64,000 bases of DNA from Heterodontus francisci (taxonomy: Eukaryota). The stretch is taken from contig NC_090380.1 in the NCBI RefSeq assembly GCF_036365525.1, positions 91,746,194 to 91,810,193 of the forward strand. The letters run 5' to 3'. Under the pieces are notes generated by a model. The model worked only from the letters and a program-made list of their open reading frames with translations. It did no database searches and was not told where the DNA came from. Shown here in pieces: positions 9,974-54,719 of this stretch; the first letter of the stretch is position 1; the number at the start of each line of letters is the position of its first letter. Position numbers and translations under genes: made by a program.

Positions 9974-12900
9974 TGTTTGTTTTGGTTTCACAAAAAAAGA
10001 CAGCACACGATTCAGCATTCTAACATGTGCTTCTCACAGTAACCTTCCATCTTTATTCTGATGTCTGTGTGGGCGTGTGGCCCTAGCCATTAAAGGAAGC
10101 CCATATACATACATCAAGTCATGCTCGGGGTCCTAAAGGTACAGTAGAGCAGACAGGTCATGGTCTCCTCACATACCATAACATCTGCCTTTTTCTGAAT
10201 TACTTGTCCAAAGGAATCAAAGTAAAATCGTACAGTGATCCCAATCACAGAACAATAACAAATAGGTCAATAGAACGCAACAGTTCAAGAAGGCAGCTCA
10301 CCACAACCTTCTTTAAGGGCAATTAGGGATGGGACACAAATTCTGGCCTTTACAGCGATGCTCATCCCATAAAACAATAAAAAAAATGTATAAGTGTATG
10401 ATACACATTTTATCCACCTGAGTCCTTGAGTGTTCATAGTGTTCTTTTCAGTTCAATGAGTCAGTAAAATTAAGTCTTTGTGCATCACTAAGTATATATT
10501 CAGTGTTCTCATTAGTGATTTACTGATGTTCTCAAACTTGAATAGACCATTTCAAAAAAATTTGAGCTTTATAAAAGAATTCCCTACGTGCTAGTAGGCA
10601 TGCTCAGCTTGCTTGCTGACAAACTGCTCATGCACTTTTATCATACTGCTTCTTTGCTTGTTTTCTGTTCTGAATGTTCTCAGCTACCCCTTCTACTACA
10701 GTAGTCTTTCAGTAGTCCTTCAGGTGTAGGTAGCAGCGTGCTGGTGTGACGAGACATCAATCTCCGCGCCGGGCTGCTTCCATTCTCATAGAGCGTGTTG
10801 AGCCAATCTAAAACTGCTAGGTAGACATCCTACCCTTCTCCTGAAGTCGTGAAAATATTCTTTGCTATCTTCACTGCTGATTCAGCCATCCCATTGCTCT
10901 GGCTGTGTAGCGGTGATGTTATGATATGCTCAAACTCCCAGTTTAGTGCAAATTTTTCATACTCTCTTGCCACAAATTGGGGCCCATTGTCAGTTATCAC
11001 CTTACCTGGCCTGCTATATCTTGCAAACAGGACCGTTGTTTATTTAACTACTGCTGCAGCTGTGGTGTCACCTGTTAGCCTATCCACCTCCCAGGAATCG
11101 CTCTAGTGATTACAGTAATAAGGTTACCACTCCGGCAGCTAAACAGATCTTGTGACACAACACTTCATGGACGTGACGTTATATCATAAGATATCGGCTG
11201 TTTCTGCTGCTTTGCCTGAAATGCATTGCACGTGCTATATTGTGTCACTTTGTCTTTCAGTTGTGTGACCATTCCCAGCCAGAAAAAAAATCTCTGGCTC
11301 GCCTGACCAAATTGTCTACTCCAAGCTGACTGTTGTAGATTCTGTCTAACATCAGTGGCTGCATTGCTTTAGGCCCTTGTAGAGAATTCCATTCCGCATT
11401 GTTATCTCCTCTCTGAAATTGAAGTACTCTCAAACTGAGACTGGTACTTCTCTTCTGTCATCTGGCCATCTGTTCTTCACCATGGGCGTCAGTATCTTTT
11501 TCTGGAGCTGAATGGATGTTGCATTGCTCACTCTCAAGTATTCTGCTTGATTAATCCATTCGATTTCATCGTAAATTGGATCAGCCTTTCTGTTGTGGGG
11601 TTCATGTATGTAGTCTCAACTCAACCCATCAGCTATGTACATCTCCTTCACAGGACAGTACTTGACATCTAGCTAGTAGTTTTGTAATCTCCATCATTCT
11701 TTGAAGATTCTTTGGTGCATTGTGAATGGCTTTGCTGAAGATTGGAACAAGTGGCTTGTGATCAGTGTGCACTGTGACCTATCTCCTTTGTACCTATTGG
11801 TCAAACCTCTCGCAGCTGAAGACTATGGCCAAAAATTCCTCCTCTATTTGAGCAAAGTCGCATTCTGCTTTGCTGAAGGCTTATTAGGCAAAGGTAACTA
11901 GCTGGCCATTCTGAAGAAGGGTAGTTCCAAGTCCTTTCTTTGATACATCACATTGGATTGTGACCTCTTCATGCAAGCTGTAGTACTTCAACACTGGAGC
12001 TTGCATGCGAAGTTGAAGCTGATTCTGTGTTTGAGTGTGGTGTTCTAGCCACTCAAAGTGAGCATCTTTGTCAATCTTCTTAAGGGCTCTGACAGCATGA
12101 GGCAATCTGGGTAGGAACTTTGCCAGGTATGTAACCCACTCAAGAAGACGTGGCACTGTCTTTTTGTCTTTCGGGATTGGCATCTCCATGATGGCCTTTA
12201 TTTTGCCCGGATCTGGGTGTAGGCCATCCTCTGTTAGTTGGTGTCCCATATAAGCCACTGATGAGAGATGAAGTTGAAGATTCTTTCTGTTCAACTTCAA
12301 ATTAACTTCTCTTGCTCTCTGCAGAAACTTGGCTAAGCTCTTGTCACGGTCTGCTACCACTTCCTGGTGGGTGTCATCACTGCCGAGTACCAGACAGTCA
12401 TCAGCTATGACATCAAGACCATCTAAGCTTTCAAGAATTTCATGCTGGCCTCATTAAAACTCTTCGGGGCTGTTGATGTCCCAACAGCATACATGTCCAC
12501 CTGTAGCAGCTGTAGGATGTAGCAAATGTTGTGATAAGACTGCTCTTCTCATCTAATTTCACATGTCAAAACCTGTCTTTAGCATCAAGAACTGAGAAGA
12601 TGTGAGCTTTAGATAGCCTCAGTACGATGTCACTAACAGTGGGAATAGGGTAGTGCGGATGCTCACAGCCTCATTCAAGTCCCTAGGGTCAATGCAGATT
12701 GCAAGTTTGTTAGGCTTCTTCACAATGACTGCACTGCTAATCCATTCTGTTGGTTGCATAACTTTGACAAGGATTCCCCGTTCTTCAAGTTCACGAGCTT
12801 CCGTTTCAGTTCCTGCTTCAAGGGAATAGCTACTTTATGAGTTGCGTACTTCATTGGAGGTACTTTGACATCTACGTCGAGGTGATATTCTCCTGGAAGG

Positions 12901-18199: not shown

Positions 18200-20855
18200 T
18201 GTAATATTACTCATTCCTTTGGTATGTGAACTATTGTAAGATTCACAGGACTCCAAGATAACAACTAGAACTTAGCTACTGCAGGAGCCACACCAACACA
18301 CATCTCACACTGTCGGGCTACGCCCACAACTCCCTGGTCATGTGTGATGCAACATCACTTCCTCCGGTGACCTTCACTTACAGCCTCTGAAAGTGGTCCT
18401 CAAGATTGTCCCACAACATCCCCTTTTATTCCAAAGATAAAAATATGTACAATATACAATGATGTTGCAGCTCAGACTAACTATACATATTTAAAGCAAA
18501 CCGTTATTTATAAGTAAGTAAGTTTAGCACTCTCTAAAACGTAGAGGCGATTTGCTTATTCATCCCAAACTTGTTATCGTAAAATCTTCCCAAAGCTGAG
18601 CACGTCTTGACGACTTCTCTGAGACTCTGATGACTCAGATCTCTGGTTTGCATGTTCTTCCTTTGTGCTCACAGACTTAGTATATTCATCAGACTTTCTC
18701 TTTGAATGTGACCGCGATGCCACAGGGTTGTCACATGTAGCGTTGTTGTACAGCTCTCTGAGTTGACTTCAGTTGCATCTGAGAATCGCGCCATTTGGTG
18801 TCTGGACTTGGTAGGATCTGGGCTGGTTGTTCCCAACACATGATTAAGGACTCTGACTTTCAGTCCTGCTTGCAATCCGAGCTAATTCTGGTCCCGCTTA
18901 CTTGTCCTACAATGCCTTCTTCTTCCCTTCTTAGAAAGCTTAGAAAAATGATGACTGGCAACTTCACCAATCACTGGCAGTCCCACTGGCCTCAGGATAC
19001 TTGCTGCAACACATTGAAGCCCAAAGAGAGACTCCGGTCATATCACCTCTTCCTGTCACAACTCCCAGCCTTTGTGTAGTCCTTTACGTGGACTGACCCA
19101 ATACACTCGACCTGGATATTTTCCAGTATCTTCGATGCGTTAGTGACTTCATATATTGTGACAATTTGTAAATCTCAGCATGCTGGATGCCCTGCAACAG
19201 CTGGTCCAGTGGTGTCTACAATGTAAAACATTTGTGGAGGCCGTTCTGAGCTCCCATAGCTGCACTGCAAGGTTATCCTTCCAATGTACTTGATTGAAGA
19301 ACCATTGTAGGCAGTCAGCCTAGCCATGATGGGTCGCACCATAAATTCCCATATCTTTAAGTACACGTCCTTCACTATACAGATGAGCAAAATATTTGCA
19401 GTTGCTCCTGTGTAGATTTTTACTCTGAGCTTGTGCTTGACAGTCCTCTGTGCCTTACAATCCCGATCATGGCGAATGCCTCAGATTGCATAAAAGCATT
19501 GACATGATGATCCAAATTAACTATGTGAAATGCCTACTCGTTCTTTGTACGAGTGCATTCTTCATCCATGTCCTCCTGACAATCTGTCTCTCTGCTGACC
19601 CAGTGTACTGGTTTGGGCTTTTGTTGTGTGTTTGCCATATCTTTTGTTGCGTTTGCCATCCTGTCTTGCAGACGTTCTCTCTGCCACCATTCCTGTGTGC
19701 AGTATCTGAGCTCGACCTGCTGCACTGCCTTGCCTAATGTCCTTGCATGCCACAAACTTTACCCTGGTCCTGCTATGCCAGACAACTGCGAATTGGTTGA
19801 GTCAGGCCACATTTGCCATAAAGCTTAGCAGATTTCTGACTTGTGGTTACCATACCAATTGTGGTAGCCATCCCCAACACTTGTAACTATTGGCACTCAG
19901 CCATGATGGCTTCAAATTTCCTTCCATTATTAACTAGTGCATGTATGGTGTTCCCTTTCTTCATTTCTAGCAGGTCTTTTTGAAAGGCCTCTATTGGAGT
20001 AGACACACTCCAGAACCTGTTCGGACAATTCAATATCTGCGAAGTTGCATTCTTGAGCTTTGTCTTGGCACCTTGCAACAAACTGGTCAATGGACTTATC
20101 TTGCCTTTGCCAGTTGGTCATCAGCTCAAGCCTATATACCCGGAAATTGACCTTCATCTTGAGTTGCTCCTCTGGGATGTCCATAGCTTGCTAGGGTCCT
20201 TCTGATCCTCAGCTGACAATCCTGATGTGTTGATCCAAGCCCTCATTGCCCAGTGTGATTTTGATTTCACAGCTTGTTTCTCTGGTTTTCTCACTTCTTA
20301 ATCCAGGAAACACAGTTCCAACTGTTGTTGAAACAGTTTAAATTCAGGCGCTATGTCCGACACCTTCCAATCCATACTTGGATACCTGAAAGCCTTTTTC
20401 TGGGTAATCCTGCTTTTTATTTTACAAATGTAGGACTTTTCACAGGCTTTCTTTTTCACAGGCACAATTCTTTTACAGGCTCTCTGCTTTACATGTTTTT
20501 TGTCCTACAGGTAGAGCGTTCTATTTCCTATTTTAGACAGATTTGTTTTTGCAGACCTGTCCCTAAGAGTGAGGTAACAGCTGATTTCTTTGTTTACACA
20601 GCTTATTCAATTTTTTTAAAATGGAGAAAGCACCTTTCATTGCTTATACAAGCTGATTCATTTTTTAAACTGACAGATCAGTTTTTATCACTCTGCTGAG
20701 CTGTAGCTAGCAGTATTGGCAACTGCCACAACCAGTCTTTTGCTTTGTGCTGGACCTCCAGTGGCGCTGTTCAGCTGTTCCCGCTCTTTTTGGATTAGGC
20801 TCTGCCCATGAAGCAAAAAAAAGGGAAAACTACCTTTTAAGGTTGTCCCACAACA
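18200..20855 (-). mobile_element. Internally deleted Gypsy LTR element B (gag + protease + integrase tail, no RT)
   Basis: ggagg TSD (18195-18199, 20856-20860). LTR 18200-18418 plus PPT; only ~17 bp of the other LTR remains. Gag NFRVYRLELM and protease region at ~19175-19440. Confidence 0.85.
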
Positions 20856-36548: not shown

Positions 36549-38050
36549 AGGGGTAGGGGTTCTTCGCGCTGCTGAGTGGTCAGCTGAGAGTGATTAGAGT
36601 ATACTAAGTATTTAAATTAGCTGACCTCATCTTGCAAGGGGAGGTAAACTTTGAGTACAGTATTTCTCTTTCTGCTTGATGCAGACTAAGTTAGTGAAAT
36701 GAGCATCGAATCAGCCGCAACAGCTGATTGATATCACAATGAGACCTCTCCTGATGCTACCGGTACGTGCATGGCACACCAGCACTAGCAACCTGTTCAG
36801 CATGGGGTGCCAGGCGAGACAGTGGTCGGTAGTGCAGCCCACGCCATTTTATGGCTTCGGGGTACCCGCACCAGTGGAGCCCAAAATTGGAGCCATATAA
36901 AGAGAAGGATACAGTGGCACACTACCGGAAATCTTTCTCATTTCTTTTTATGGTCAATAAATCACTGCAGCTTTTTATCATTTATTACTGGGGAATAATC
37001 TATTCACAGCGAAGAAATATTAGCAGACGAGCAGAAACCCACAAAACATTTGTGTTGAAATTAATATCTATCACAACAGTACTTCTTTAAGTACAGGATT
37101 TCTGATTATTCTTTCACTAAAGAATTTAACAGAATCAAAACTTCTCACTCTGGAAAAAGCTACATAAAATTGTCCATGTGTAAAGCAGACCTAGGAATAT
37201 AAATATAAATTTTGGCCTTGTGACTTTTTTATAGTCAGAGAATATGAATGTCTAATTGGGAGTTGGAAAGGTAGGTTTACATCTGATGGACTCAATATTA
37301 TTTGAGGAATAAACACTCTATTTCCTTGAAATATGCTTGTTATAATTTCAGCATCTATCATGGAAGAAAACAGCTTCCTAACTACCAATTTTAGAGTCAT
37401 TTACGGCACAGAAGAAGGCCATTCAGCCCATCGAATCCATAACAGCTTTCCACAGAGCGATGCAGTCAGTTCCACTCTTCCACTCGATTCCCGTAGGCCT
37501 GCAAGTCTATTTCTTTCAGGTAGCCATTCAACTTCCTCTTGAAGTCATTGATTGTTTCCACTTCCACCAGCCTTGTGGACATTACCATTTGCTGCATAAC
37601 ATAGTGCTTCCTCATATTCCCCCCTGCATCTTTTGCCCAAAACTTTCAATCTGTGTCCCCTAGTCCTTGTACCATTAGTTAATAGGAACAGCTTTTCCTT
37701 GTCTAACTTATCTACCTGTCATAATCATGTGCACTTCTATTAACCTCTTTTGTTCTAAGAAGAACAAGCCCAGCTTTTCCAACCTAACCTTTTTTGTGTG
37801 ATTGCCTTTAAAAGTGGTGTCCCTTTAAGATCTTAATATGACAATAAGCTAAGTACCAGGATGTTGTCATGTGACTACATGCCAGTCTCACTCTGCTACT
37901 GTAACATCTAGAAACAAGTCATGTAAATAGTTAGCTCTGCATTGTATATACTTGTTAGCTGTTCATAAACCTGTTTGAGATCTTCAATCAACTGGACTCC
38001 ATGCATCTCATTTATGTTGCATCAGACAACATAAAAAGCTTCTCATTACA

Positions 38051-38066
38051 TGGTGGCATGTGGTGA
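38051..38066 (+). promoter_or_regulatory. Primer-binding site, probably a degenerate tRNA-Leu type
   Basis: tggtggcatgtggtg directly after the 5' LTR resembles TGGTGGCAGCGGTGG. Confidence 0.6.
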
Positions 38067-40112
38067 GAAGACAGAATCCAAGATTGAAGACCACAGGAAA
38101 ACAACTTTAAAAACTACCTGCAGCTAAAGGACAGTATGTTAAAAGAAACACTGGCCCAAACAGTGTAAAGAAGAAAAAAAAAACTCAGTTCCAGCTATAG
38201 AAGACAGAGCTGAATGACAGGCTACAAATCAATCACTGTGAGCAGGTGAGTCAGTCTCCTGTCGGTACATGAACCTCAGATGAAATAAAAGCTTTGAGGT
38301 GCTTGCAAAGTTATTTTTTGTAAAAAGGCTCAATAAAAGAAAAAAACAGGAAAACCCAATCCCTATCTCAGGCTGATTGCAAATTTTCAAAGGTTTCCCC
38401 AGGCTGATCAGGTCTGCACCATTACAGGAAGTGCCCAACAGCAAAAAACACGAGAATCCTCCATTCACACAGCTCACAGCTAGAGCTATAGATAGAAATT
38501 AATTTAATAACTTTAATGCTGAAGAGCTTTCATTCATTCAGTCCCAGTTTTTAAAAAAACTCATAAAGCCCTCAAGCATGAAGATTGTCTCTTGAACGGC
38601 TGTATAAACAAACCCAAGTTTTAAAAAGCACTTGAAATGCCTATTGTACAGCTGTGTAAACAGACAGGCTAGAGTTCTGGAAGCTAGATAAACAGACAGG
38701 CTGCTCCTGTCAATCAAACCAGCCAGTCTAAAGAAGATAATTTTTTTAAAAAGGGAAAGCAGTACAGAGTCACAGAAGCAAGTTCTTAAAGAAAGTTTCA
38801 AAGTAAAAGGACAGCAGGGAAATGGGTAACGAATTTCCTAGCATGAACTGGAAAGCCTTGGATATCCTATCCGAGTTCAAACTGTTCCAACGGAGAATGC
38901 AATTATGTTTTATAGAGCAAGTAATTGCAGAACCAGAAAAATAGGCTGTAAAAATAATGATAGCAATTGGAAATGAGGGATTTCATAGAATCAATACCTC
39001 TGGATTATCTGAACAGGACTAGAAAGATCCCACAAATATATGGAAAGTGCTGGAAGATCAGCTCAGATTGAGAGTGAATTTTTGAATTCACCGCCTGGAA
39101 TTGATGTCCTACAGGCAACAGCCACAGGAATCAATAGACCAGTTCATCAGCAGATGCTGTAGTAAGGACAACAAATGGAACCTTTCAGAAGTTGAGCTGT
39201 CACACTGAATAATGGAGCTGGTGATTGCATCAACACTCATTGAAGTGTTCCAGAAAGACCTCTTGGGGGAAAAAGGAAAAGTCACAGCACTGCTGGAAGA
39301 TGGCAGGAAATATGAAGCTATTGTAGCTGGCCAAAAACTTCTACAAGCTCTAGGTGCAACCAGCAGTATCGGCACATAATCAGGTCAAAAAGAGTAAGCA
39401 AGCTGTGTGGTAAATGTGGTCTGTCCCACTCATGGCAAAATTGTCTTGCATTTTGAGACCTGTGCAAGGCATGCAGGGCAAAAGGACACTGGCCCCGCCT
39501 ATGCAGGAATTCTGGCTCCAAAGATGCAGCCAGAAGTCACAGTAAAACACAAACAAACAGAAAACAGGGCAACCATAGCAAGGAAAGCATCACAGCCCTG
39601 CATAAACACAAACCAATTCAAGAGGTCACTAGCGAAACAGACCTGAGGCAAGACCCAGAGAGAAGATGAACAGGCATTCCACATTGTGAACCTAACACAT
39701 CACATTGATGAAGTCCAACAACTGGAAGCTTTCACCACTATTAACATCATGTGCCCAAAGAAAGCTAGAAAACATACACGCAAGGTCAAGATTGACACCA
39801 GTGCTAGTGCAAATATCCTACCAGTCCAAATCCTCAAAGATATGTACCGGAGTTGTCGGAAATCAATGATACAACTGACAACTGCCAAGTTATCTGCATG
39901 CAACGGGTCACCCATCCCTTGCAATGGCACATTAACAATGTAATGCAGATATGGCAAGTCGGCATGGAAACCACAAATGTTCTACCTGGTAGACACGAGC
40001 GAACCAGCAGTGGCAGGACTACCAGCGTGTAAGGACCTCAACACCATAACTATCCACAAGAGCATTGCCAAAGAGAAAATCTCCTACGACCGGAACCTGA
40101 TCGCAGACTCTG

Positions 40113-40202
40113 ACCAGCATCAGATGGTGAAATCTGGAAACCCAACAACAGCACAAATATGCCGTGCCTTCACTTCTGCTCTCTAGAGAATTGCTAGCAC
40201 CA
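40113..40202 (+). pseudogene. myc-like: Captured Myc-family fragment, part 1 (Myc box IV)
   Basis: Frame starting 40143 reads QQQHKYAVPSLLLSRELLAP, preceded by IRW*NLET; compare Myc/N-Myc/L-Myc KRCH..HQQHNYAAPS. Confidence 0.75.
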
Positions 40203-41053
40203 CCAGTGTGATTTGGACAGGTTGAGTAAGCGGGTAAATACATGGCAGATGCAGTATAATGTGGATAAATGTGAGGTTATCCACTTTGGTGGCAAAAACA
40301 GAAAGGCAGATTATTATCTGAATGGCGATAGGTTGGGAAAGGGGGAGCTGCAGTGAGACCTGGGTGTCCTTGTGCACCAGTCGCTGAAAGTAAGTATGCA
40401 GGTGCAGCAGGAGTTAAGAAGGCAAATGGTATGTTAGCCTTCATAGCGAGAGGATTCGAGTACAGGAGCAAGGATGTCTTGCTGCAATTATACAAGGCCT
40501 TGGTGAGACCGCATCTGGAATATTGTGTGCAGTTTTAGTCCCGTTATCTGAGGAAGGATGTTCTTGCTATGGAAGGAGTGCAGCGAAGTTCACCAGACTG
40601 ATTCTGATGGCAGGACTGACATATGAAGAGAGATTGGGTCGATTAGGCTTGTATTCGCTGGAGTTTAGAAGAAAGAGAGGGGATCTCATAGAAACCTAAA
40701 AATTCTAACAGGACTGGACAGACTAGATGCAGGAAGGATGTTCCCAATAGTGGGGGAGTCTGGGACGAGGGTTCACAATCGAAGGATAAGGGGTAAGCCA
40801 TTTAGGACTGAGATGAGGAGGGATTTCTTCACCCAGAGAGTGGTGAACCTGTGGAATTCTCTACCACAGAAAGCAGTTGAGGCCAAATCATTAAATATAT
40901 TTAAGAAAGAGTTAGATATAGTTCTTAGGGCTAAAGGAATCAAGGGATATGGGGAGAATGCGGGAACAGGGTACTGAGTTTGGACGATCAGCCAAGGTCG
41001 TATTGAATGGCAGTGCAGGCTCAAAGGGCCTGCTCCTATTTTCTATGTTTCTA
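40203..41053 (+). mobile_element. CR1 3' fragment inserted into the captured myc sequence
   Basis: LDRL..WQMQYNVDKCEVIHFG...[12 protein letters not shown] and a ttctatgtttcta tail. Confidence 0.9.
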
Positions 41054-41394
41054 CAATGAGACAGAATGGACAGATATTTCCATGAGGCCAAGTCCTGCTC
41101 CCCCAAAAAGTCCTCGAACTTGAGCCCAAGCCTTCTGACGAAGAGGATGTGGAGAGGCAAAGGAGACACAATGTCCTGAAGAGGCAGAGGAGGAATGAGT
41201 TGAAGCATTGTCTGTTGGTTCCTTGAGATGAGGTGCCAGAACTTTCCAAGAATGACAAGGCCTCAAAGGTGGTCATCTTGAGAAAAGCAACAAAGTATGT
41301 TAGCAGGCTGAAGGCAGAGCAACAGAAACTGAATGCAGAGAGGGAGAAACGGCAGAAAGAACAGCAACAGGTGAGACGCAAAGTCCCCGAGCAA
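41054..41394 (+). pseudogene. myc-like: Captured Myc-family fragment, part 2 (bHLH-leucine zipper)
   Basis: Frame from 41131 reads [83 protein letters not shown]. Compare Myc [42 protein letters not shown]. Stop at 41224 is CGA>TGA-like. Confidence 0.93.
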
Positions 41395-42638
41395 GAGTCG
41401 TCAGACCACTGATATATGGACTTTTGAGCCTCTATATTTGTAAAATTTCACAATCGCAATCCATGTGTAAATAATTTTGATGTTATCTAATTTTATGTAT
41501 TTTTACTTTTAGCATACGAGACTTATCTTTGGAAAGAAGGGGGATGTTGTGCCTTTGAGAGTGATGTCGCTTTAAGATCTTAATATGATAATGAGCTAAG
41601 TACTAGGATGTGGTCATGTGACTACATGCCAGTCTGGCTCTGCTATTCTAACTCTTGGAGGCAAGTCATGTAAATAATTAGCTCTGCACTGTATATACTT
41701 GTTAGCTGTTAATAAACCTGTATGAGATCTTCAATCAACTGAACTCCATGCATCTCATTTATGTTGCATCAGACAACATATAAAGCTTCTCATTACAACC
41801 TTGTAATTAAAATCCCCCATCCCTGGAAGCATTCTGGTAAATCTCCTCTGAAACCTCTCAAGGATCCTGACATCCTTCCTGAAGTGTGGTGACCAGAACT
41901 GGATGCAAAGCTCCAGTTGGGGCCTAGCCAGAGCTTTATAGAGGTTCAGCATAACTTTGCTGCTTTTGTACTCAATGTCTCTATTTATGAAGACCAAGAT
42001 CCCATAGGTTTTACTAACCACTCTCTCAATTTGTCCTTCCACCTTCAAAGATCAATGCACATGCACCCCCACGTCCCTCCGTTCATGCACATTCTTTAGA
42101 ACTGTGCCATTAAGTATATATATTGCCTCTCCCTATTCCTTCTGCCAAAATGCATCACCTCACACTTGTCTGTATGAAATTCCATCTGCCACCTCTCTGC
42201 CCATTCTGCTAGCCTATCTATGTCCTGTTGCAGGCAGTTCATATCATCCTCACTATTTGCCTCATCTCCAATTTTGGTGTCGTCTGCAAATTTTAAGATT
42301 CTACTCTGTATTCCAAGATCCAAGCCATTTATATATAGCAAAAAGCTTGTTCCATGACAAGGTCCTTGTTTAGGATTCAAGTTTCATAGCAACATCATAA
42401 CTGTTCCTTCCTTGAGTCTAAGTTTGTGCAGTGGCATACCCATTGGAGTTAGGCGGTGTAGCGCCTCTGGAGGGTATTTATTGTCATCATATTATTCGTC
42501 TATATAGGAACATAAGAAATAGGAGCAGGAATAGGCCATTCGGCCTCTTGAGCCTGCTCTGCCATTCAACTAGATCATGGCTGACCTTCTATCGCAACAC
42601 CATTTTCCTGCACTATCCTCATATCCCATGATAACTTT

Positions 42639-47300: not shown

Positions 47301-48584
47301 AAGCCCTCCAATGAGCATCTCCTCAAATATTCATTTTAAAATGCACCATGTATGTTGGGGTTCTTTTAAAGGTTAAAAGAAACAATAATTATAAGGCTGA
47401 TGAAAGCGCAGCTTCCACTCCCAACTTTCACTGCAGTAGTGATGAGTGCAGGGGAAACGCTATAGCAAAATCTTGTCCAGTTTTTAGGCCTGACTTTGGA
47501 AATGCACCATAAATGAGGACACAATGCCAACCTCTGCTCAGTCAGCTGAGATAGTGTAACTTTATTGAAACATTTTTCCAGCAAGGAATACATCCATGTG
47601 GTTTTTAATACAAAGTTATGGCATTGTCAGGGTTTAATTTTAGGATGAGTAGTTTAGGATAGGCCAGTGCAGAGCTTTGCTCTGATGTATTTCTTTTAAA
47701 CAGAGAATGGTGCTGCAAATGTACATCATAGATATCCCCCTTTGTTGATTTGTGGTTACATGCCCCTAGTTAAGCAGTAGCAATATAGGACTGAATTTTC
47801 CCAGCCCACTGGAGATGAGGTTGGAGGCGGTGGGGGGTGGTGTTGTGGGGGAAATAGGGGAGTGCTGCGTCCGGATGGTTCCCTGACACATTCCCACCTC
47901 TGGGGAACTTGCCAGGATGCGGAAGAAAGTCAGCAGCCTGCTCCAATAAGGCAGGCAGCCAATTACACGGCTTAAGTAACAAATTAGGGACTATTTTCTG
48001 ATGGAGATGGCATCTTACCACCTTCAGAGTGGGACTCTGCCGTGTGGGAAGCGCACCAGCTCTCAAGAGGCGGCCTCCTGGCAACAGGACAGGAGGCCAT
48101 CGATGCCTCCTTTAAATCCACTCCCCCACTTCCTGGAACCTCCACAATGATGGCCTGGCAGCTGTGGCTACACTGAATTTTAACAATTTAAGAAATCTTC
48201 AGAGGGCACCTTGATCTTGAGGTGCCCTGGTGGCCTCCCACCTACATCGGCAGCAGCTACCTTTCCCATTGGGTCTGCTGGCTGCCCACAGCCTCAGGCA
48301 CTCCAGTTGACACTCCTGCCTTGCCCAACCTGTATTGAGAAGCTTTTTGTTGTCTGATGCAACATAAAATGAGATACGTGGAGTTCAGTTGCTTGAAGAT
48401 CTCAAACAGGTTTATTAACAGCTAAAAAGTATATACAGTGCAGAGTTAACTATTTACAGAACTTGCCTCTTAGTGTTACTCAGGCTCTGAGTCACATGAC
48501 TGCATCCTGGTACTCATCTCATTAGCATACTAAGATCTTCAGGGCCAACATGTTCCCGTAAAGATGAAGTGTAGGACCAACAAG

Positions 48585-49655
48585 TTTTTTTTAAAATTCA
48601 TTCATGGGATGTGGGCATCACTGGCTTTGCCAGCATTTATTGCCCATCCCTAATTGCCCTTGTGAAGGTGGTGGTGAGCTGCCTTCTTGAACCGCTGCAG
48701 TCCATGTGAGGTAGGTACACCCACAGTGCTGTTCGGAAGGGAGTTCCAGGATTTTGACCCAGCGACAGTGAAGGAACGGCGATATAGTTCCAAGTCAGGA
48801 TGGTGTGTGACTTGGACGGGAACTTGCAGGTGGTGATGTTCCCATACATCTGCTGCTCTTGTCCTTCAAGGTGGTAGAGGTCGCAGGTTTGGAAGGTGCT
48901 GTCTAAGGAGCCTTGGTGAGTTGCTGCAATGCATCTTGTAGATGGTACACACTGCTGCCACTGTGCGTCGGTAGTGGAGGGAGTGAATGTTTGTGCATAG
49001 TGTGCCAATCAAGTGGACTGCTTTGTTCTGGATGGCGTCGAGCTTCTTAAGTGTTGTTGGAGCTGCACCCATCCAAGCAAGTGGAGAGTATTCCATCAGA
49101 CTCCTGACTTGTGCCTTGTAAATGGTGGACAGGCTTTGGGGAGTCAGGAGGTGAGTTACTCGCCTCAGGATTCCTAGCCTCTGACCTGCTTTTGTAGCCA
49201 TGGTATTTATATGGCTACTCCAGTTCAGTTTCTGGTCAATGGTAACCCCCAGGATGTTGATAGTGGGAGATTCAGCGATGGTAATGCCATTGAATGTCAA
49301 GGGGAGATGGTTAGATTCTCTCTTGTTGGAGATGGTCATTGCCTGGCACTTGTGTGGCGCAAATGTTACTTGCCACTTATCAGCCCAAGCCTGGATATTG
49401 TCCAGGTCTTGCTGCATTTCTACACGGACTGCTTCAGTATTTGAGGAGTCGCGAATGGTGCTGAACATTGTACAATCATCAGCGACCATCCCCACTTCTG
49501 ACCTTATGATAGAAGGAAGGTCATTGATGAAGCAGCTGAAGATGGTTGGGCCTAGGACACTACCCTGAGGAACTCCTGCAGTGATGTCCTGGAGCTCAGA
49601 TGTTTGACCTCCAACAACCACAGCCATCTTCCTTTGCTCTAGGTATGACTCCAAG
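48585..49655 (-). mobile_element. LINE family B RT/3' fragment within the LTR of D
   Basis: ORF 48866-49654 with GVPQGSVLGP and VADDCT. Confidence 0.85.
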
Positions 49656-51770
49656 TCCAGGGAACCCTGGATGTCAAGGGATATAGAGGATTGGATAAGG
49701 AAAAAAAGGAGGCTTATGGCAGATTCAGAGGGCTGAAAACAGCAGAGTCCCTAGAGGAGTATAGAAAGCGTAGGGGGGGTACTTAAAAAAGTAATTAGGA
49801 GAGCAAAGAAGGTGCATGAAAAAACACAGGCAGGCAAGATAAAGGAAAATCCCAAGGTGTTTTATAAGTATATTAAGGGTAAGAGGATAACCAAGGAAAG
49901 AGTAGGGCCCATTAGGGACCAAAGTAGAAATCTGTATGTGGTGCGGGAGGAAGTAGATGAGGTTTTAAATGATTACTTCTCCATAGTGAACAAATTATAT
50001 GACACAAATTTTCAAATCCTCTCTTGCCACAGGAGTGGTGCCAGAGGACTGGAGGACAGCGAATGTGGTACCATTATTCAAGAAGTGTAACAGGAATAAA
50101 TCAAGTAATTACAGGCCAGTGAGTCTAACATCAGTGGTAGGGAAACTACTGGAAAAAATTCTGAGGGACAGGATTAATCTCTACTTGGAGAGGCAGGGAT
50201 TAGTCAAGGATAGTCCGCATTGCTTTGTCCATGGGAGATCATGTCTAACAAACTTGATTGAATGTTTCGAGGAGGTGACTAGATGTGTAGATGAGGGTAA
50301 AGCAGTTAATGTAGTCTACATGGACTTCAGTAAGGTTTTTGATAAGGTTCCACAAGGGAGATTGGTTAAGAAGGTAAGAGCCCATGGGATCCAGGGCAAT
50401 TTGGCAAATTGGATCCAAAATTGGCTTAGTGACAGGAGGTAGAGGGTGATGGTCGAGGGTTGTTTTTGTGAGTGGAAGCCTATGACCAGTGGTGTACGGC
50501 AGGGATCAGTGCTGGGACCCTTGCTGTTTGTAGTGTACATTAATGATTTAGACGTGAATATGGGAGGTATGATCAGTAAGTTCGCAGATGACATGAAAAT
50601 TGGTGGTGTTGTAAATAGTGAGGAGGAAAGCCTTAGATTACAGGATGACAGGCTGCTAAGATGGGCGGAGCAGTGGCAAATGGAATTTAATCCTGAGAAG
50701 TGTGAGGTGATGCATTTTGGGAGGACTAACAAGGCAATGGAATATACAATGGATGGTAGGACCCTAGGAAGTACAAGGGTCAGAGGGACCTTGGTGTACT
50801 TGTCCATAGATCACTGAAGGCAGCAGCACAGGTAAATAAGGTGGTTAGGAAGGCATATGGGATACTTGCCTTTATTAGCCGAGGCATAGAATATAAGAGC
50901 AGGGAGATTATGATGGAGCTGTATAAATGCTAGTTAGGCCACAGCTGGAATAGTGTGTACAGTTCTGGTCGCCACACTATAGGAAGGGTGTGATTGCACT
51001 GGAGAACGTACAGAGGAGATTCACCAGGATGATGCCTGGGCTGGAGCATTTCATCTATGAAGAGACACTGGAAAGGCTAGGGTTGTTTTCCTTAGAGCAG
51101 AGAAGGCTGAGGGGGGACCTGATTGAAGTATACAAAATTATGAGGGGCATAGATAGGGTAGATAGAAAGAAACTTTATCCCTTAGCAGACGTGTCAATAA
51201 CCAGGGGGCATAGATTTAAGGTAAGGGGCAGGAGGTTTAGAGGAGATTTGAGGAAAGATTTTTTCACTCAGAGGGTGGTTGGAATCTGGAACACACTGCC
51301 TGAAGGGGTGGTAGAGGCAGGAACCCTCACAACATTTAAGAAGTTTTTAAATGAGCACTTGGAACGCCATAGCATACAAGGCTACAGGCCAAGTGCTGAA
51401 AAATGGGATTAGAATAGATAGGTGCTTGATGGTCATCACCGGTATGATGGGCTGAAGGGTAAAGGTGTGCAAAGGAAACCCGACCCCAGTCCGAATGTCA
51501 GACCCGGAAGCCCGACATGACCTGGCCCGAACCCGACATGTGTTGTCGGATCCCGTCAGGGTCGGGTCGGGTTGGGTAGTAGGTCTTTACATCAGTATAT
51601 GGGTAAAGGCCCATTACCCGACCCGACATCGACGGGTCCCGACGACCTGTGTCGAGGTCGGGCTGGGTTGGGTCGAACTTCTGGGTCCAGCATTCAGGCT
51701 CGGTTGGGTTTCCTTTGCACACCTTTACCGAAGGTCCTGTTTCTGTGCTGTATAACACTATGACTCTATG
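49656..51770 (+). mobile_element. Degenerate CR1 within the LTR of D
   Basis: NYRPVSLTS, FADDMK, RGDLIEVYK and a ctatgact tail. Confidence 0.88.
51460..51727. mobile_element. hAT-type MITE
   Basis: 21-bp TIR taaaggtgtgcaaaggaaacc, 8-bp near-TSD ctgaaggg/ccgaaggt and internal (acccg)n repeats. Confidence 0.8.
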
Positions 51771-54719
51771 ACATCGCTCTTAAAGGCAATCACACAACAT
51801 TCCCATTCTTTCCAGCGATAAGACTTGCATACTAAAAGCAAAACTTATAACATTAGATAACATCAAAATTATTTACACATGGATAGAAATTGTGAAGCTT
51901 ATCGATATAAAGGCTTATGAGACCATCTATCGTTTCGGTGGTTTGACAACTCTTCCAGATCTGGTTATGGTATTACCTTCTGGGGATGTGGATTTCACCC
52001 TTGGCTGTCCTGGGTTTGCAGGCATGTTGTTGGCGTTGGTTGCCGTCCTGTTGATTTGTCACACCCCGACTGTCAGAGTGTGCTCCCTCAAGTCCGCCGT
52101 GCGCAGTTGGAGTGCTGCAGAGCTCTCTCAGTTGGCTTCGGTTTCTTCTCAACACTGCTCAGCTAGATGTTGTAATCTCATAGGACCTAGGCCCACCGCA
52201 CATGGTGGACACCTCTACAGGCAATCATGTATTCATTGTGGGGTGTATGACCTTGACCTTTTGTCCTCTGAGTAGCTGAGGTAGTTGCACCGCTGCGTGT
52301 CGGTCATACACCATCTTAATTCCCCCCTGCTTTTCGAGCAGTGTCTCAAGAATTTGGACAGATGATGGCTTGGCAGAGTCATCCGCACTTCTCTGCCAAA
52401 CATGATCTCTGCTGGTGATGGTTAGCCCATATCCATTGGTGTAGCTCTGAGGTGGAGCATGGCAATACAAAGACTTTGTTTCATTATCCTACACTTTAGG
52501 ATAAGTGCTTTGACTGTGTGGACCATTTGCTTGGTGAGACCATTAGACCTAGGGTAATGTGGTGAGGACGTCACATGGTTTATGCCCCATTTGGCACACA
52601 CATCCCTGAAAGGTCTGCCCGTATACTGTGGCCCATTGTCAGAAATGATTTCTTCAGGTGCACCAAATAGACTGAATATGGCACTCAATGTGTCTGTGAT
52701 GCCCACGCTTGAAGTGTCTTTTACCTGTCTGACAATTGGAAATTTGGAAAAATAATCAGTGATTAAGATAAAGTCGTCTCCGTTAATGGAAAATAGGTCA
52801 GTGGTGATTTTGGACGAAGGGACTGATAGAATCCCGTGAGGGTGTAGAAGTTCATTGTGTTGTTGTGGCTGGTAGCTCTGGTGTGCCTCACACATCCTCA
52901 CGAACCTTTCAATGTCATTATTGATCCTTGGCCAATAAAAAGTGTTCCGTGCCAGTCATCTTGTTTGCTCTATGCCCATATGGCCTTGGTGAAGTTGTAA
53001 CAAGATGCCCTCTCGGAGAGCTTTGGGCACAATCACTTATTTTCCCTTGAAAGTGACGCCTCTCGAGATACCGAGTTCATCTCTGTAAGGCCAGAAGCAT
53101 CTGAGGGTTTCTGGCATCTCTTTTATCATATCAGGACATCCTTCTATGACGACTTTCCACAGTGCTTTCAGTTGTGGGTGATTTGGTATTTCTGATTGTA
53201 GTTGGTCACATTTGTACTGATCAAAATGCAATAAATTGATTTTGAGCACATCTTCCACCTCGATGTCCATGCTGTCTATTTTTAGATCCAGTGGAACTTC
53301 TTCATTCTTGTTCTGATTTGGCAATCTGCTCAGCATATCTGAGGTGACCATTTTGGTACCTGGTTTGTAGCAGATGTCGAAGTCATACCCCTGTGCTTTC
53401 ACTAAGAGTCGCTGTAGTTGAGGTGGTGCGCTTGTCAATGGTTTGCACCAGATCACCACCAGTGGTTTGTAGTCAGTTTCCACAGTGAACTGCTTACTGA
53501 ACAGATAGGTATGGAACCTTGTGATCTCAAACACGAGACCAAGTGTTTCACGCTCTATATTTGAATAATTGGATTGTGCTGAGGATAAACATTTGGACCT
53601 GAGTACAGTTGGTTTGCCATCCTGGAGGATACATGCTCCTCGCCCTTTCTGTCAGATGTCGACTTCCAGGATGGTCTTTTTCTTTGCATCATTGTACTGC
53701 AGGGTACAGGTTTCTGCTGACGATGCTTGTTTGAGAGACTCAAACATATGCTGATGGTCCTCCTGCCATACATATGCTACGTCTTTTTTTAAGAGCTCTC
53801 TCAGCGATGCTGCTTTGTCTGAAAAATTTGGAATGTATGGTGCCAGGAAGTTGAAAAATCCAAGACATCTCTGGAGATCTTCCTTGTCTTGTGAGTAGGC
53901 ATATGTTTTATATTGTTGACTTTGCCTGGGTCAGGACGGATTCCACAACCAGAATAGATGGAGCCAAAGAAATTGATCTGACTTACATTTACCTGGCACT
54001 TCTTGCTGTTAAAAAGGAACGCTTCGCGACAAGCTACTGCCATCGGTGATAGAAGATTTTGATTATGTTCTTCTTTGGTTTTTGCCTATTACCGCAATGT
54101 CATCGGCAATTCATTGCAGCCAGGCACATTTTCTATAATTCTGTCCATGTGCTGCTGAAACAGATCCTGACTGACAGATAAGCCGAAGGGTAGTCTTTGG
54201 AAGCAGTATCGTCCAAATGGTGTTCTGAAAGTGGTGACGTCCTGAGATTCCTTAGCTAGGTGTACCGACCAATATCCATGTTTAGGATCCAACTTGGAGA
54301 AGTATTTGGCTCCTGTGAATTGGGGTTCAGTTCAAAAACTCAGGCTCCAAGTCACACGACTGTGTCATGGCACTTAGCTCATTAGCATACAAAAATCTTA
54401 AAGGAACATTTCTCTTAAAGGCAATCACACAACACAGACCGCCCGCCATCCCTAATTGGATGGGGCTCCTGTGTGCTGGTAGTAAATAAGAAAGACATAT
54501 GAGAAAATCAGTTGATAGGGATAAAAGATGACTCAATATATTCTTTTTTCTTGATCTACATTGGGGTCGGGACCCGGATATGGTTCCAATGCCTGCCAGA
54601 AAATCCATCTCATAGAGTCCCTTTCAAAACTTAACTGTCTTTCACCTATTCTTTTGATCCTGACACTCCAGTTTTTTTCTATCCCAAACATAAATATTGG
54701 ATGTTTGTGCCATTTATAG

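What the first reader, a model, noticed from the sequence alone, without database searches (positions are those of the whole stretch)
37792..41797. Gypsy LTR retrotransposon carrying a captured Myc bHLH-zipper in place of RT-RNaseH-integrase
Seen in the sequence: a complete LTR-PBS-gag-protease-X-PPT-LTR element with a 5-bp TSD. After removing a later CR1 insertion (40203-41053), X reads ..[132 protein letters not shown]. Established knowledge: this is the order Myc box IV (QHNYAAP), NLS-region linker, SDxED, basic-HLH-LZ found in the last exon of Myc-family genes, and gag-myc capture with loss of pol defines defective avian viruses such as MC29. Inference: a non-retroviral LTR retrotransposon transduced a proto-oncogene fragment, which looks more L-/N-Myc-like than c-Myc-like. 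The ORF track misses it because of stops and a frameshift. I know of no description of this, but cannot check the literature.
Basis: partly seen in the sequence, partly recalled or inferred. Interest (0 to 1): 0.96.

Follow-up and report, generated by a model that had tools for sequence, protein, structure and literature searches.

The report
Shark retrotransposon family carrying a Myc
In the horn shark genome a Gypsy retrotransposon swapped its copying enzymes for the back two-thirds of a host Myc-family mRNA (mych) and spread to roughly two thousand copies, most of which changed a key DNA-contacting residue of Myc, which makes it a germline echo of retroviral oncogene capture, though not a working oncogene.

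Summary
Confirmed, and larger than reported. The window holds one decayed copy of a family of about 2,000: 1,717 genome hits to a bHLH 30-mer, control 0. It is a Gypsy element whose RT-RNaseH-integrase is replaced by a piece of the host mych gene, not L- or N-myc. Longer copies cross the mych exon 2/3 junction without the 1.7-kb intron, so capture was from spliced mRNA. An RT-bearing parent family lives in the same genome. Both switch points lie at 6-7-nt microhomologies and fuse myc in frame to protease/RT start and to the integrase tail. Later deletions shorten the cargo but stay in frame upstream of the bHLH. The cargo lacks Myc boxes I/II, so it is not a v-myc-type activator. The E-box-contacting Glu survives in 8 of 19 long-tail copies but in 1 of 38 derived ones (mostly Lys), and the His was then changed too. 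Otherwise the cargo shows no significant purifying selection. Best reading: a translated passenger whose DNA binding was disarmed. The mechanism, LTR-mediated retroposition, is known; my 10 paper searches found no Myc cargo and no such case in sharks.

The parts
37787..37791 (+). 5-bp target site duplication ACCTT (second copy 41798-41802)
   Evidence: sequence
37792..38050 (+). 5' LTR
   Evidence: K2P 0.105 to the 3' LTR
38051..38068 (+). primer binding site (TGGTGGCA...; tRNA-Leu type is recalled, not tested)
   Evidence: same start in other copies
38843..39660 (+). gag with Cys-His knuckles, broken by stops and frameshifts
   Evidence: (zf-CCHC_2 weak, E 0.002)
39677..40057 (+). aspartic protease (KIDT motif), broken
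40060..40202 (+). captured mych, host CDS 585-726 (start of box IV region); in frame with the protease at the junction
   Evidence: 85% to host
40203..41053 (+). later insertion private to this copy (CR1-like 3' end, recalled)
   Evidence: absent from 28 of 29 other copies at this site
41054..41382 (+). captured mych, host CDS 728-1056: linker, basic region, HLH (41155-41313), zipper; Lys at 41179-41181 where Myc proteins have the E-box Glu
   Evidence: 89% to host
41383..41530 (+). remnant of the parent's pol C-terminal tail (read in another frame in this short form) and 3' untranslated stretch
41531..41544 (+). polypurine tract
41545..41797 (+). 3' LTR (TG...CA)
48325..54432 (-). decayed copy of the RT-bearing parent family 10 kb away: related LTRs (77-82%), RT-RNaseH-integrase in Gypsy order, and the tail with the CAAATT switch motif; gag-protease part missing

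Best explanation
A non-autonomous Ty3/Gypsy family born by LTR-mediated retroposition. (1, junctions shown, process inferred) During reverse transcription in a particle of the parent element, RT jumped from the start of the RT region onto a co-packaged spliced mych mRNA at a shared GGATGCA, copied codons ~116-352, and jumped back to the integrase tail at a shared CAAATT. The result was one gag-protease-mych-tail frame. (2, shown) The chimera kept LTRs, PBS and PPT and spread to about 2,000 sites; further deletions gave shorter subfamilies, of which the window type is the youngest. (3, inferred) RT and integrase came in trans from the parent family. (4, inferred, about 45%) The fused Myc piece was translated as a by-product. 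Lacking the activation domain, it would have blocked E-boxes in germ or early embryo cells, so lineages that lost the base-contacting Glu and then His spread best. The copies seen are now dead and decay neutrally. The confidence given is for steps 1-3.
For: Donor: host gene at G000:C16 ~100.02 Mb, 100% to NCBI 'myelocytomatosis oncogene homolog [Heterodontus francisci]'. Copies are 81-92% to its CDS. Seven annotated element proteins form a clade with it (97/95) apart from other sharks' mych. Splice: 27 of 54 copies cross exon 2|3 without the intron; nearly all the rest start downstream of it. Parent: 10 of 12 RT-bearing copies checked match the long form over the protease end or linker at about 80-88% and run on into RT where myc begins; parent tails and LTRs match at 76-94%. 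Frame: protease and myc anchors are in frame in 23 of 24 short (C), 7 of 9 middle (B), 8 of 16 long (A) and 1 of 1 other copies; 3 of 53 were skipped. The zipper runs in frame into the tail in most of 20 tail-anchored copies. Copy number: 1,717 hits, reversed control 0; the pattern finds 46 of 54 sampled copies. TSDs differ and are exact in 7 and 4/5 in 4 of 20 copies (read by eye). Glu kept in 8 of 19 tail-anchored vs 1 of 38 B+C copies, Fisher p 0.0003. His codon is CGC or its CpG decay products in B and C.
Against: No sign of purifying selection on the cargo. Lineage-level changes are 12 N: 7 S against a neutral N share of 0.71 (p 0.45). A-vs-C diagnostic sites fall 3/2/1 on codon positions in myc against 8/4/26 in gag-protease. 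The Glu and His changes may each be one inherited event, so copy counts are not independent. The chance that 2 of 4-6 lineage changes hit the contact residues is 0.006-0.014 for three residues but 0.06-0.14 for nine, and the test was chosen after the fact. Staying in frame could serve mRNA stability alone. The commonest 3' deletion is out of frame with the tail. Half of the A copies are out of frame across the junction, which I read as private indels. My searches were anchored on myc or on the tail, so derivatives that lost myc altogether were not sampled.
Confidence: 0.92

Rival explanations
1. Pure neutral passenger. The capture happened as above, but the Myc peptide never mattered: the family spread because it was a short, well-packaged RNA, and the Glu and His changes are chance hitch-hikers.
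For: Cargo N:S is near neutral. Non-autonomous chimeras are known to be re-copied (PMC5131818, passages). Few lineage events underlie the pattern.
Against: All five 5' junction types seen are in frame ((1/3)^5 is about 0.4% if independent). Two of about five bHLH-zip lineage changes hit base-contact residues.
Confidence: 0.3
2. Functional co-option. The element used the HLH-zipper as a Max-sequestering dominant negative that altered the host cell state, or as an oligomerisation or nuclear-import module on Gag-protease. Loss of DNA binding sharpened that role.
For: Deletions trim the cargo from the N side (CDS 345, 382, 585) and trim the tail, while sampled copies keep the bHLH-zip; all 20 tail-anchored copies have the zipper. 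Helix and zipper core residues show no lineage shift except a change at Leu349. In E47 the same Glu-to-Lys is the strongest dominant negative of all substitutions (PMC11286708, passages). Myc-bearing hits outnumber RT-start hits 1,717 to 845.
Against: No significant amino-acid constraint. Sampling is biased to myc-bearing copies. No copy stands out as conserved after insertion (lowest p 0.04 among 66).
Confidence: 0.2
3. The myc piece is an ordinary L1-type retrocopy that landed in one integrated Gypsy copy, or came through an infectious retrovirus.
For: The intron is missing, as in any retrocopy.
Against: The piece is cut at both ends inside the CDS, a few codons before the stop, with no poly-A or own TSD. 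Both ends sit at parent-host microhomologies and the parent's RT-RH-IN is replaced, not interrupted. Gag, protease and pol relatives are env-less echinoderm-type Gypsy polyproteins.
Confidence: 0.02

Closest known systems
LTR-mediated retrocopies (Tan et al. 2016, PMC5131818; passages read)
   Same: A partial mRNA replaces internal ORFs between LTR parts. Microsimilarity at both switch points (median 6 bp there, 6-7 nt here), no poly-A or TSD, re-copying as non-autonomous elements, often in frame.
   Different: In the passages read the cases are low-copy (Bs1 one to five copies). Here there are about 2,000 copies with subfamilies, a Myc-family cargo and stepwise change of its DNA-contact residues.
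Maize Bs1 and human HERV-K/FAM8A1 captures (as cited in PMC5131818)
   Same: An LTR element carries host exonic sequence and is copied again.
   Different: Other cargo, other element class, few copies.
Defective acute transforming retroviruses with gag-myc (MC29, MH2, FeLV-myc; recalled)
   Same: Spliced myc sequence fused in frame behind gag, pol lost, helper needed.
   Different: A Gypsy element without env, inherited in the germline. The donor is mych. Myc boxes I/II are absent and the E-box Glu is lost, so it is not an activator.
Dominant-negative bHLH proteins (E47 p.E555K, PMC11286708; Omomyc and aMax, PMC7780693; passages read)
   Same: The dimer surface is kept without an activation domain; the same Glu-to-Lys change as in E47.
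   Different: No function was tested here; the copies are decayed repeats.
Echinoderm Gypsy polyproteins named K02A2.6-like (Mag/SURL lineage is my recalled label)
   Same: Gag is 48-54% identical; single gag-pol frame, PR-RT-RH-IN order.
   Different: They are autonomous and carry no host cargo.

Membership tests
Ty3/Gypsy LTR retrotransposon | LTRs with TG..CA, PBS, PPT, 4-6 bp TSD | tested here: met
   (the window's 5' LTR starts TT)
Ty3/Gypsy LTR retrotransposon | pol order PR-RT-RNaseH-IN (in the parent) | tested here: met
   parent copy in the window; P0251; junction continuity
Ty3/Gypsy LTR retrotransposon | own RT and integrase (autonomy) | tested here: not met
   replaced by mych in all myc-bearing copies seen; hence a non-autonomous derivative
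Mag clade of Gypsy | RT tree placement with named Mag/SURL elements; tRNA-Leu PBS; double Cys-His | not tested
LTR-mediated retrocopy | intron absent | tested here: met
   27 of 54 copies span exon 2|3
LTR-mediated retrocopy | microsimilarity at both switch points; internal ORF replaced | tested here: met
   GGATGCA at 5'; CAAATT at 3'
LTR-mediated retrocopy | co-transcription from the LTR | tested here: inconclusive
   contigs of runs only guessed to be RNA cover all 30 bins; no strand or start information
mych orthologue group | sequence and tree placement with mych, not myc or mycn | tested here: met
   no mycl row was in the tree and no mycl gene appeared among the 118 Myc_N matches listed
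v-myc-type oncogene | Myc boxes I and II (activation domain) present | tested here: not met
   MBI-like at aa 38 and MBII-like at aa 96; capture starts at aa 116 (motif labels recalled, domain layout PMC7780693)
v-myc-type oncogene | intact E-box contacts (H-E-R-R, PMC3206218 passage) | tested here: not met
   Glu kept in 5 of 53 copies, Lys in 40
Retrovirus (Retroviridae) | env gene and retroviral-type gag/pol | tested here: not met
   no room for env between tail and PPT; relatives are Gypsy polyproteins

The most novel reading that the evidence does not exclude
A germline retrotransposon captured a Myc-family gene and was selected to keep and retune its product, from a DNA-binding truncated Myc to a non-DNA-binding HLH-zipper that interferes with the Myc/Max network or aids particle assembly or import. 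That let it outnumber its own helper about two to one. It would be a transposon-borne host-factor weapon in a vertebrate, and a few copies that NCBI annotates with several isoforms may since have been drawn into host transcripts.
Probability: 0.22. Interest if true: 0.95.

Novelty: new variant of a known kind. Interest (0 to 1): 0.8.

Why it matters
Gag-myc capture is the textbook origin of retroviral oncogenes, but it is seen in tumours, not as a heritable family. Here the same architecture arose in a retrotransposon without env and was fixed about 2,000 times in a vertebrate germline, together with its parent, its donor and a graded series of derivatives. That makes two questions testable from sequence. 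Is captured host cargo selected for, selected against or ignored while an element spreads? Does a cell-growth regulator have to be disarmed to ride in the germline? It also explains at least seven spurious 'myc/N-myc-like' gene models and one chimeric SLC2A10 model in the public horn shark annotation.

Tried and rejected
L-myc/N-myc/c-myc as donor: rejected. Host myc (C5) and mycn (C3) match the window only at 68-69% over 135 nt against 85-89% for mych. A search for the parent through the tail found only myc-bearing copies, 20 of 20; the parent was found through its RT instead. Shared indels in the cargo as a frame test were uninformative: the shared ones are mostly recurrent homopolymer slips; private ones are 69 frameshifting to 9 in frame. 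A search for a conserved (exapted) copy found none beyond chance among 66. Whether the C subfamily's gag-protease came from another helper: only 4 sites could be checked, 19 A-like to 1 C-like letters in 12 parent copies, too few. Three loci with a host-like letter in the exon-2 probe were ordinary B copies, not a second capture. Expression: no listed holder is on record as RNA, so there is no evidence either way. A copy tree on 417 columns is star-like and resolves only the C group. Earlier scan findings: none. No fold or complex job was sent, because a Myc/Max pair would pass by likeness to solved structures. Literature: 10 searches showed no description of this family in their listings; subscription papers, Repbase/Dfam entries and supplements were not seen.
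Full report
Observation. The element lies where reported: LTRs 37792-38050 and 41545-41797 (90% alike), TSD ACCTT, PBS, PPT. Gag and protease are decayed but align to a full Gypsy polyprotein, P0251 (53% in gag; 43% and 42% in protease). The segment after the protease hits Pfam HLH (3.5e-8) and solved Myc chains (1.5e-19) far better than Max (2.9e-7). The 851-bp insert at 40203-41053 is a later, private insertion: 28 of 29 other copies run straight across the site.

A family, not a single event. A DNA search of the window's own 6.0-Gb genome gave 2,658 candidates. The 40 scored were the window and 39 others at 87-90%. Of 29 fetched, 28 have gag/protease upstream and 28 have the LTR downstream. 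A host 30-mer from the bHLH has 1,717 matches within 3 mismatches, and the reversed control has 0. It detects 46 of 54 sampled copies, so I estimate about 2,000 copies. An exon-2 probe finds 594, so the long forms are roughly a third. TSDs are exact in 7 and 4/5 in 4 of 20 copies, all different (read by eye). LTR pairs differ by K2P 0.066-0.18, median 0.119 (16 of 20 measurable). The short C form is youngest (pairwise 0.092 vs 0.12-0.13). I measured no rate, so 'tens of millions of years' is inference. Private changes are neutral (omega about 1.06 for singletons), so the copies are dead; 20 of 49 still have a bHLH-zip without stop or frameshift.

Donor. A Myc_N search found three host genes: myc (C5), mycn (C3) and a third on C16. 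The third is 100% identical to the NCBI protein 'myelocytomatosis oncogene homolog [Heterodontus francisci]'. Copies match its CDS at 81-92%. In a 31-row protein tree, seven annotated element products group with it (97/95), apart from the mych of Carcharodon, Stegostoma, Scyliorhinus, Mustelus, Heptranchias and rays (no mycl row). Element-type myc proteins appeared only from this species among the 240 rows listed. Capture therefore postdates the split of the horn shark line from those sharks. Contigs from two further coded organisms cover the whole element: B (one sample, RNA by guess) and C (DNA by guess). Organism B shows the same deletion joints, so the family predates their split. In zebrafish, mych is switched on by Pou5f1 right after the mid-blastula transition and is not maternal (PMC3958507, passages), which would put its mRNA in early embryonic cells; this is untested in sharks.

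Mechanism of capture. 27 of 54 copies cross the exon 2|3 junction with the 1.7-kb intron missing. An RT search with part of P0251 found the parent: 10 of 12 copies checked match the long form over the protease end or linker at about 80-88%, up to the point where myc begins, and go on into RT; the other two have a deletion or an insertion there. Parent and host share GGATGCA at that point (LREDA-IP in the parent, KLDA-VP in the host). At the 3' end, parent and host share CAAATT, and the chimera returns to the integrase tail in the parent's own frame. Parent LTRs match at about 76-88%. An RT-start probe has 845 matches. One decayed parent copy with RT-RNaseH-IN lies in this window at 48325-54432. 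This fits the microsimilarity template-switch model of PMC5131818 (passages).

Derivatives. 5' junctions start at host CDS 345 (A), 382 (B) and 585 (C, window type), with two rarer types. All are in frame with the protease: C 23 of 24, B 7 of 9, A 8 of 16, other 1 of 1; 3 were skipped. Read-through gene models P0125-P0127 confirm the A frame. On the 3' side, two copies keep a full tail, many have a 204-nt in-frame deletion, and the commonest form has an out-of-frame deletion that stops about 20 codons after the zipper.

What the cargo could do. Capture starts at codon 116, after the MBI- and MBII-like motifs, so there is no activation domain (layout from PMC7780693, passages). The basic region has the H-E-R-R pattern described as critical for DNA binding (PMC3206218, passage) at host 281/285/288/289. 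Glu285 is kept in 8 of 19 tail-anchored long copies, 4 of 15 A, 0 of 12 B and 1 of 26 C; it is Lys in 40 of 53. His281 is CAC in most long copies but CGC or its CpG decay products in B and C. The other lineage shifts in the 79 codons are at 326 (possibly host-side), 345 and 349, plus CpG noise. In E47 the equivalent Glu-to-Lys abolishes base contacts and is the strongest dominant negative (PMC11286708, passages); the equivalence rests on the ExxR spacing. Against a protein role: the cargo's lineage changes are 12 N: 7 S (neutral share 0.71, p 0.45), while gag-protease differences between A and C are strongly third-position (26 of 38, p 1e-5; myc 1 of 6). The chance figure for hitting the contacts (0.006-0.14, depending on the set) is post hoc. 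My odds: disarmed passenger 45%, neutral passenger 30%, functional co-option about 20%.

Expression is open. No holder is on record as RNA, and contigs from runs guessed to be RNA cannot separate LTR-driven transcripts from intronic passengers. Two copies are annotated with 3-4 RefSeq accessions each; that this means spliced transcripts is inference.

Novelty. The process is described, in vertebrates too. In 10 paper searches, for which I saw listings, and passages of five papers, I found no Myc cargo in a retrotransposon and no account of this family; repeat libraries, subscription papers and supplements were not seen. Verdict: a real, new high-copy variant of LTR-mediated gene capture with an unusually telling cargo. 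Interest 0.8.

Noticed in passing
window 48325-54432 (-): Decayed RT-RNaseH-integrase copy of the parent family, with related LTRs, 10 kb from the myc copy.
   Followed up: yes
window 18748-20375 (-) and 10728-12831 (-): Two more distant Gypsy remnants (31-41% to P0251 in gag, protease or pol).
   Followed up: no
P0244 (XP_067904673.1), contig of C16 length: The NCBI model of SLC2A10 begins with element gag and a mych-type HLH joined to the transporter exons; either a mis-annotation or a chimeric transcript.
   Followed up: partly
P0123-P0128, P0130 (P0130 = L011): Seven 'myc-like/N-myc-like' horn shark gene models are element copies. P0128 has four and P0130 three RefSeq accessions; L011 is not significantly conserved.
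   Followed up: partly
host codons 250, 254, 257, 318 in C-type copies: The youngest subfamily carries host letters at sites where the older forms differ, three of them within 24 nt. This may mean a second template switch onto mych mRNA, or parallel change.
   Followed up: partly
The closest named gag-pol relatives are from sea urchin, sea cucumber and starfish (RT part of unnamed P0251 up to 73% identical to shark copies). Horizontal transfer from echinoderms is possible but untested; a Mustelus model (P0260) also carries a related gag piece.
   Followed up: no
L018, L028, L057, L060: Four B copies share a 3-nt shorter exon junction, as a NAGNAG acceptor or one shared deletion would give.
   Followed up: no
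No mycl gene appeared among the Myc_N matches listed; only 119 of 1,624 candidates were scored, so this shows nothing about its absence.
   Followed up: no
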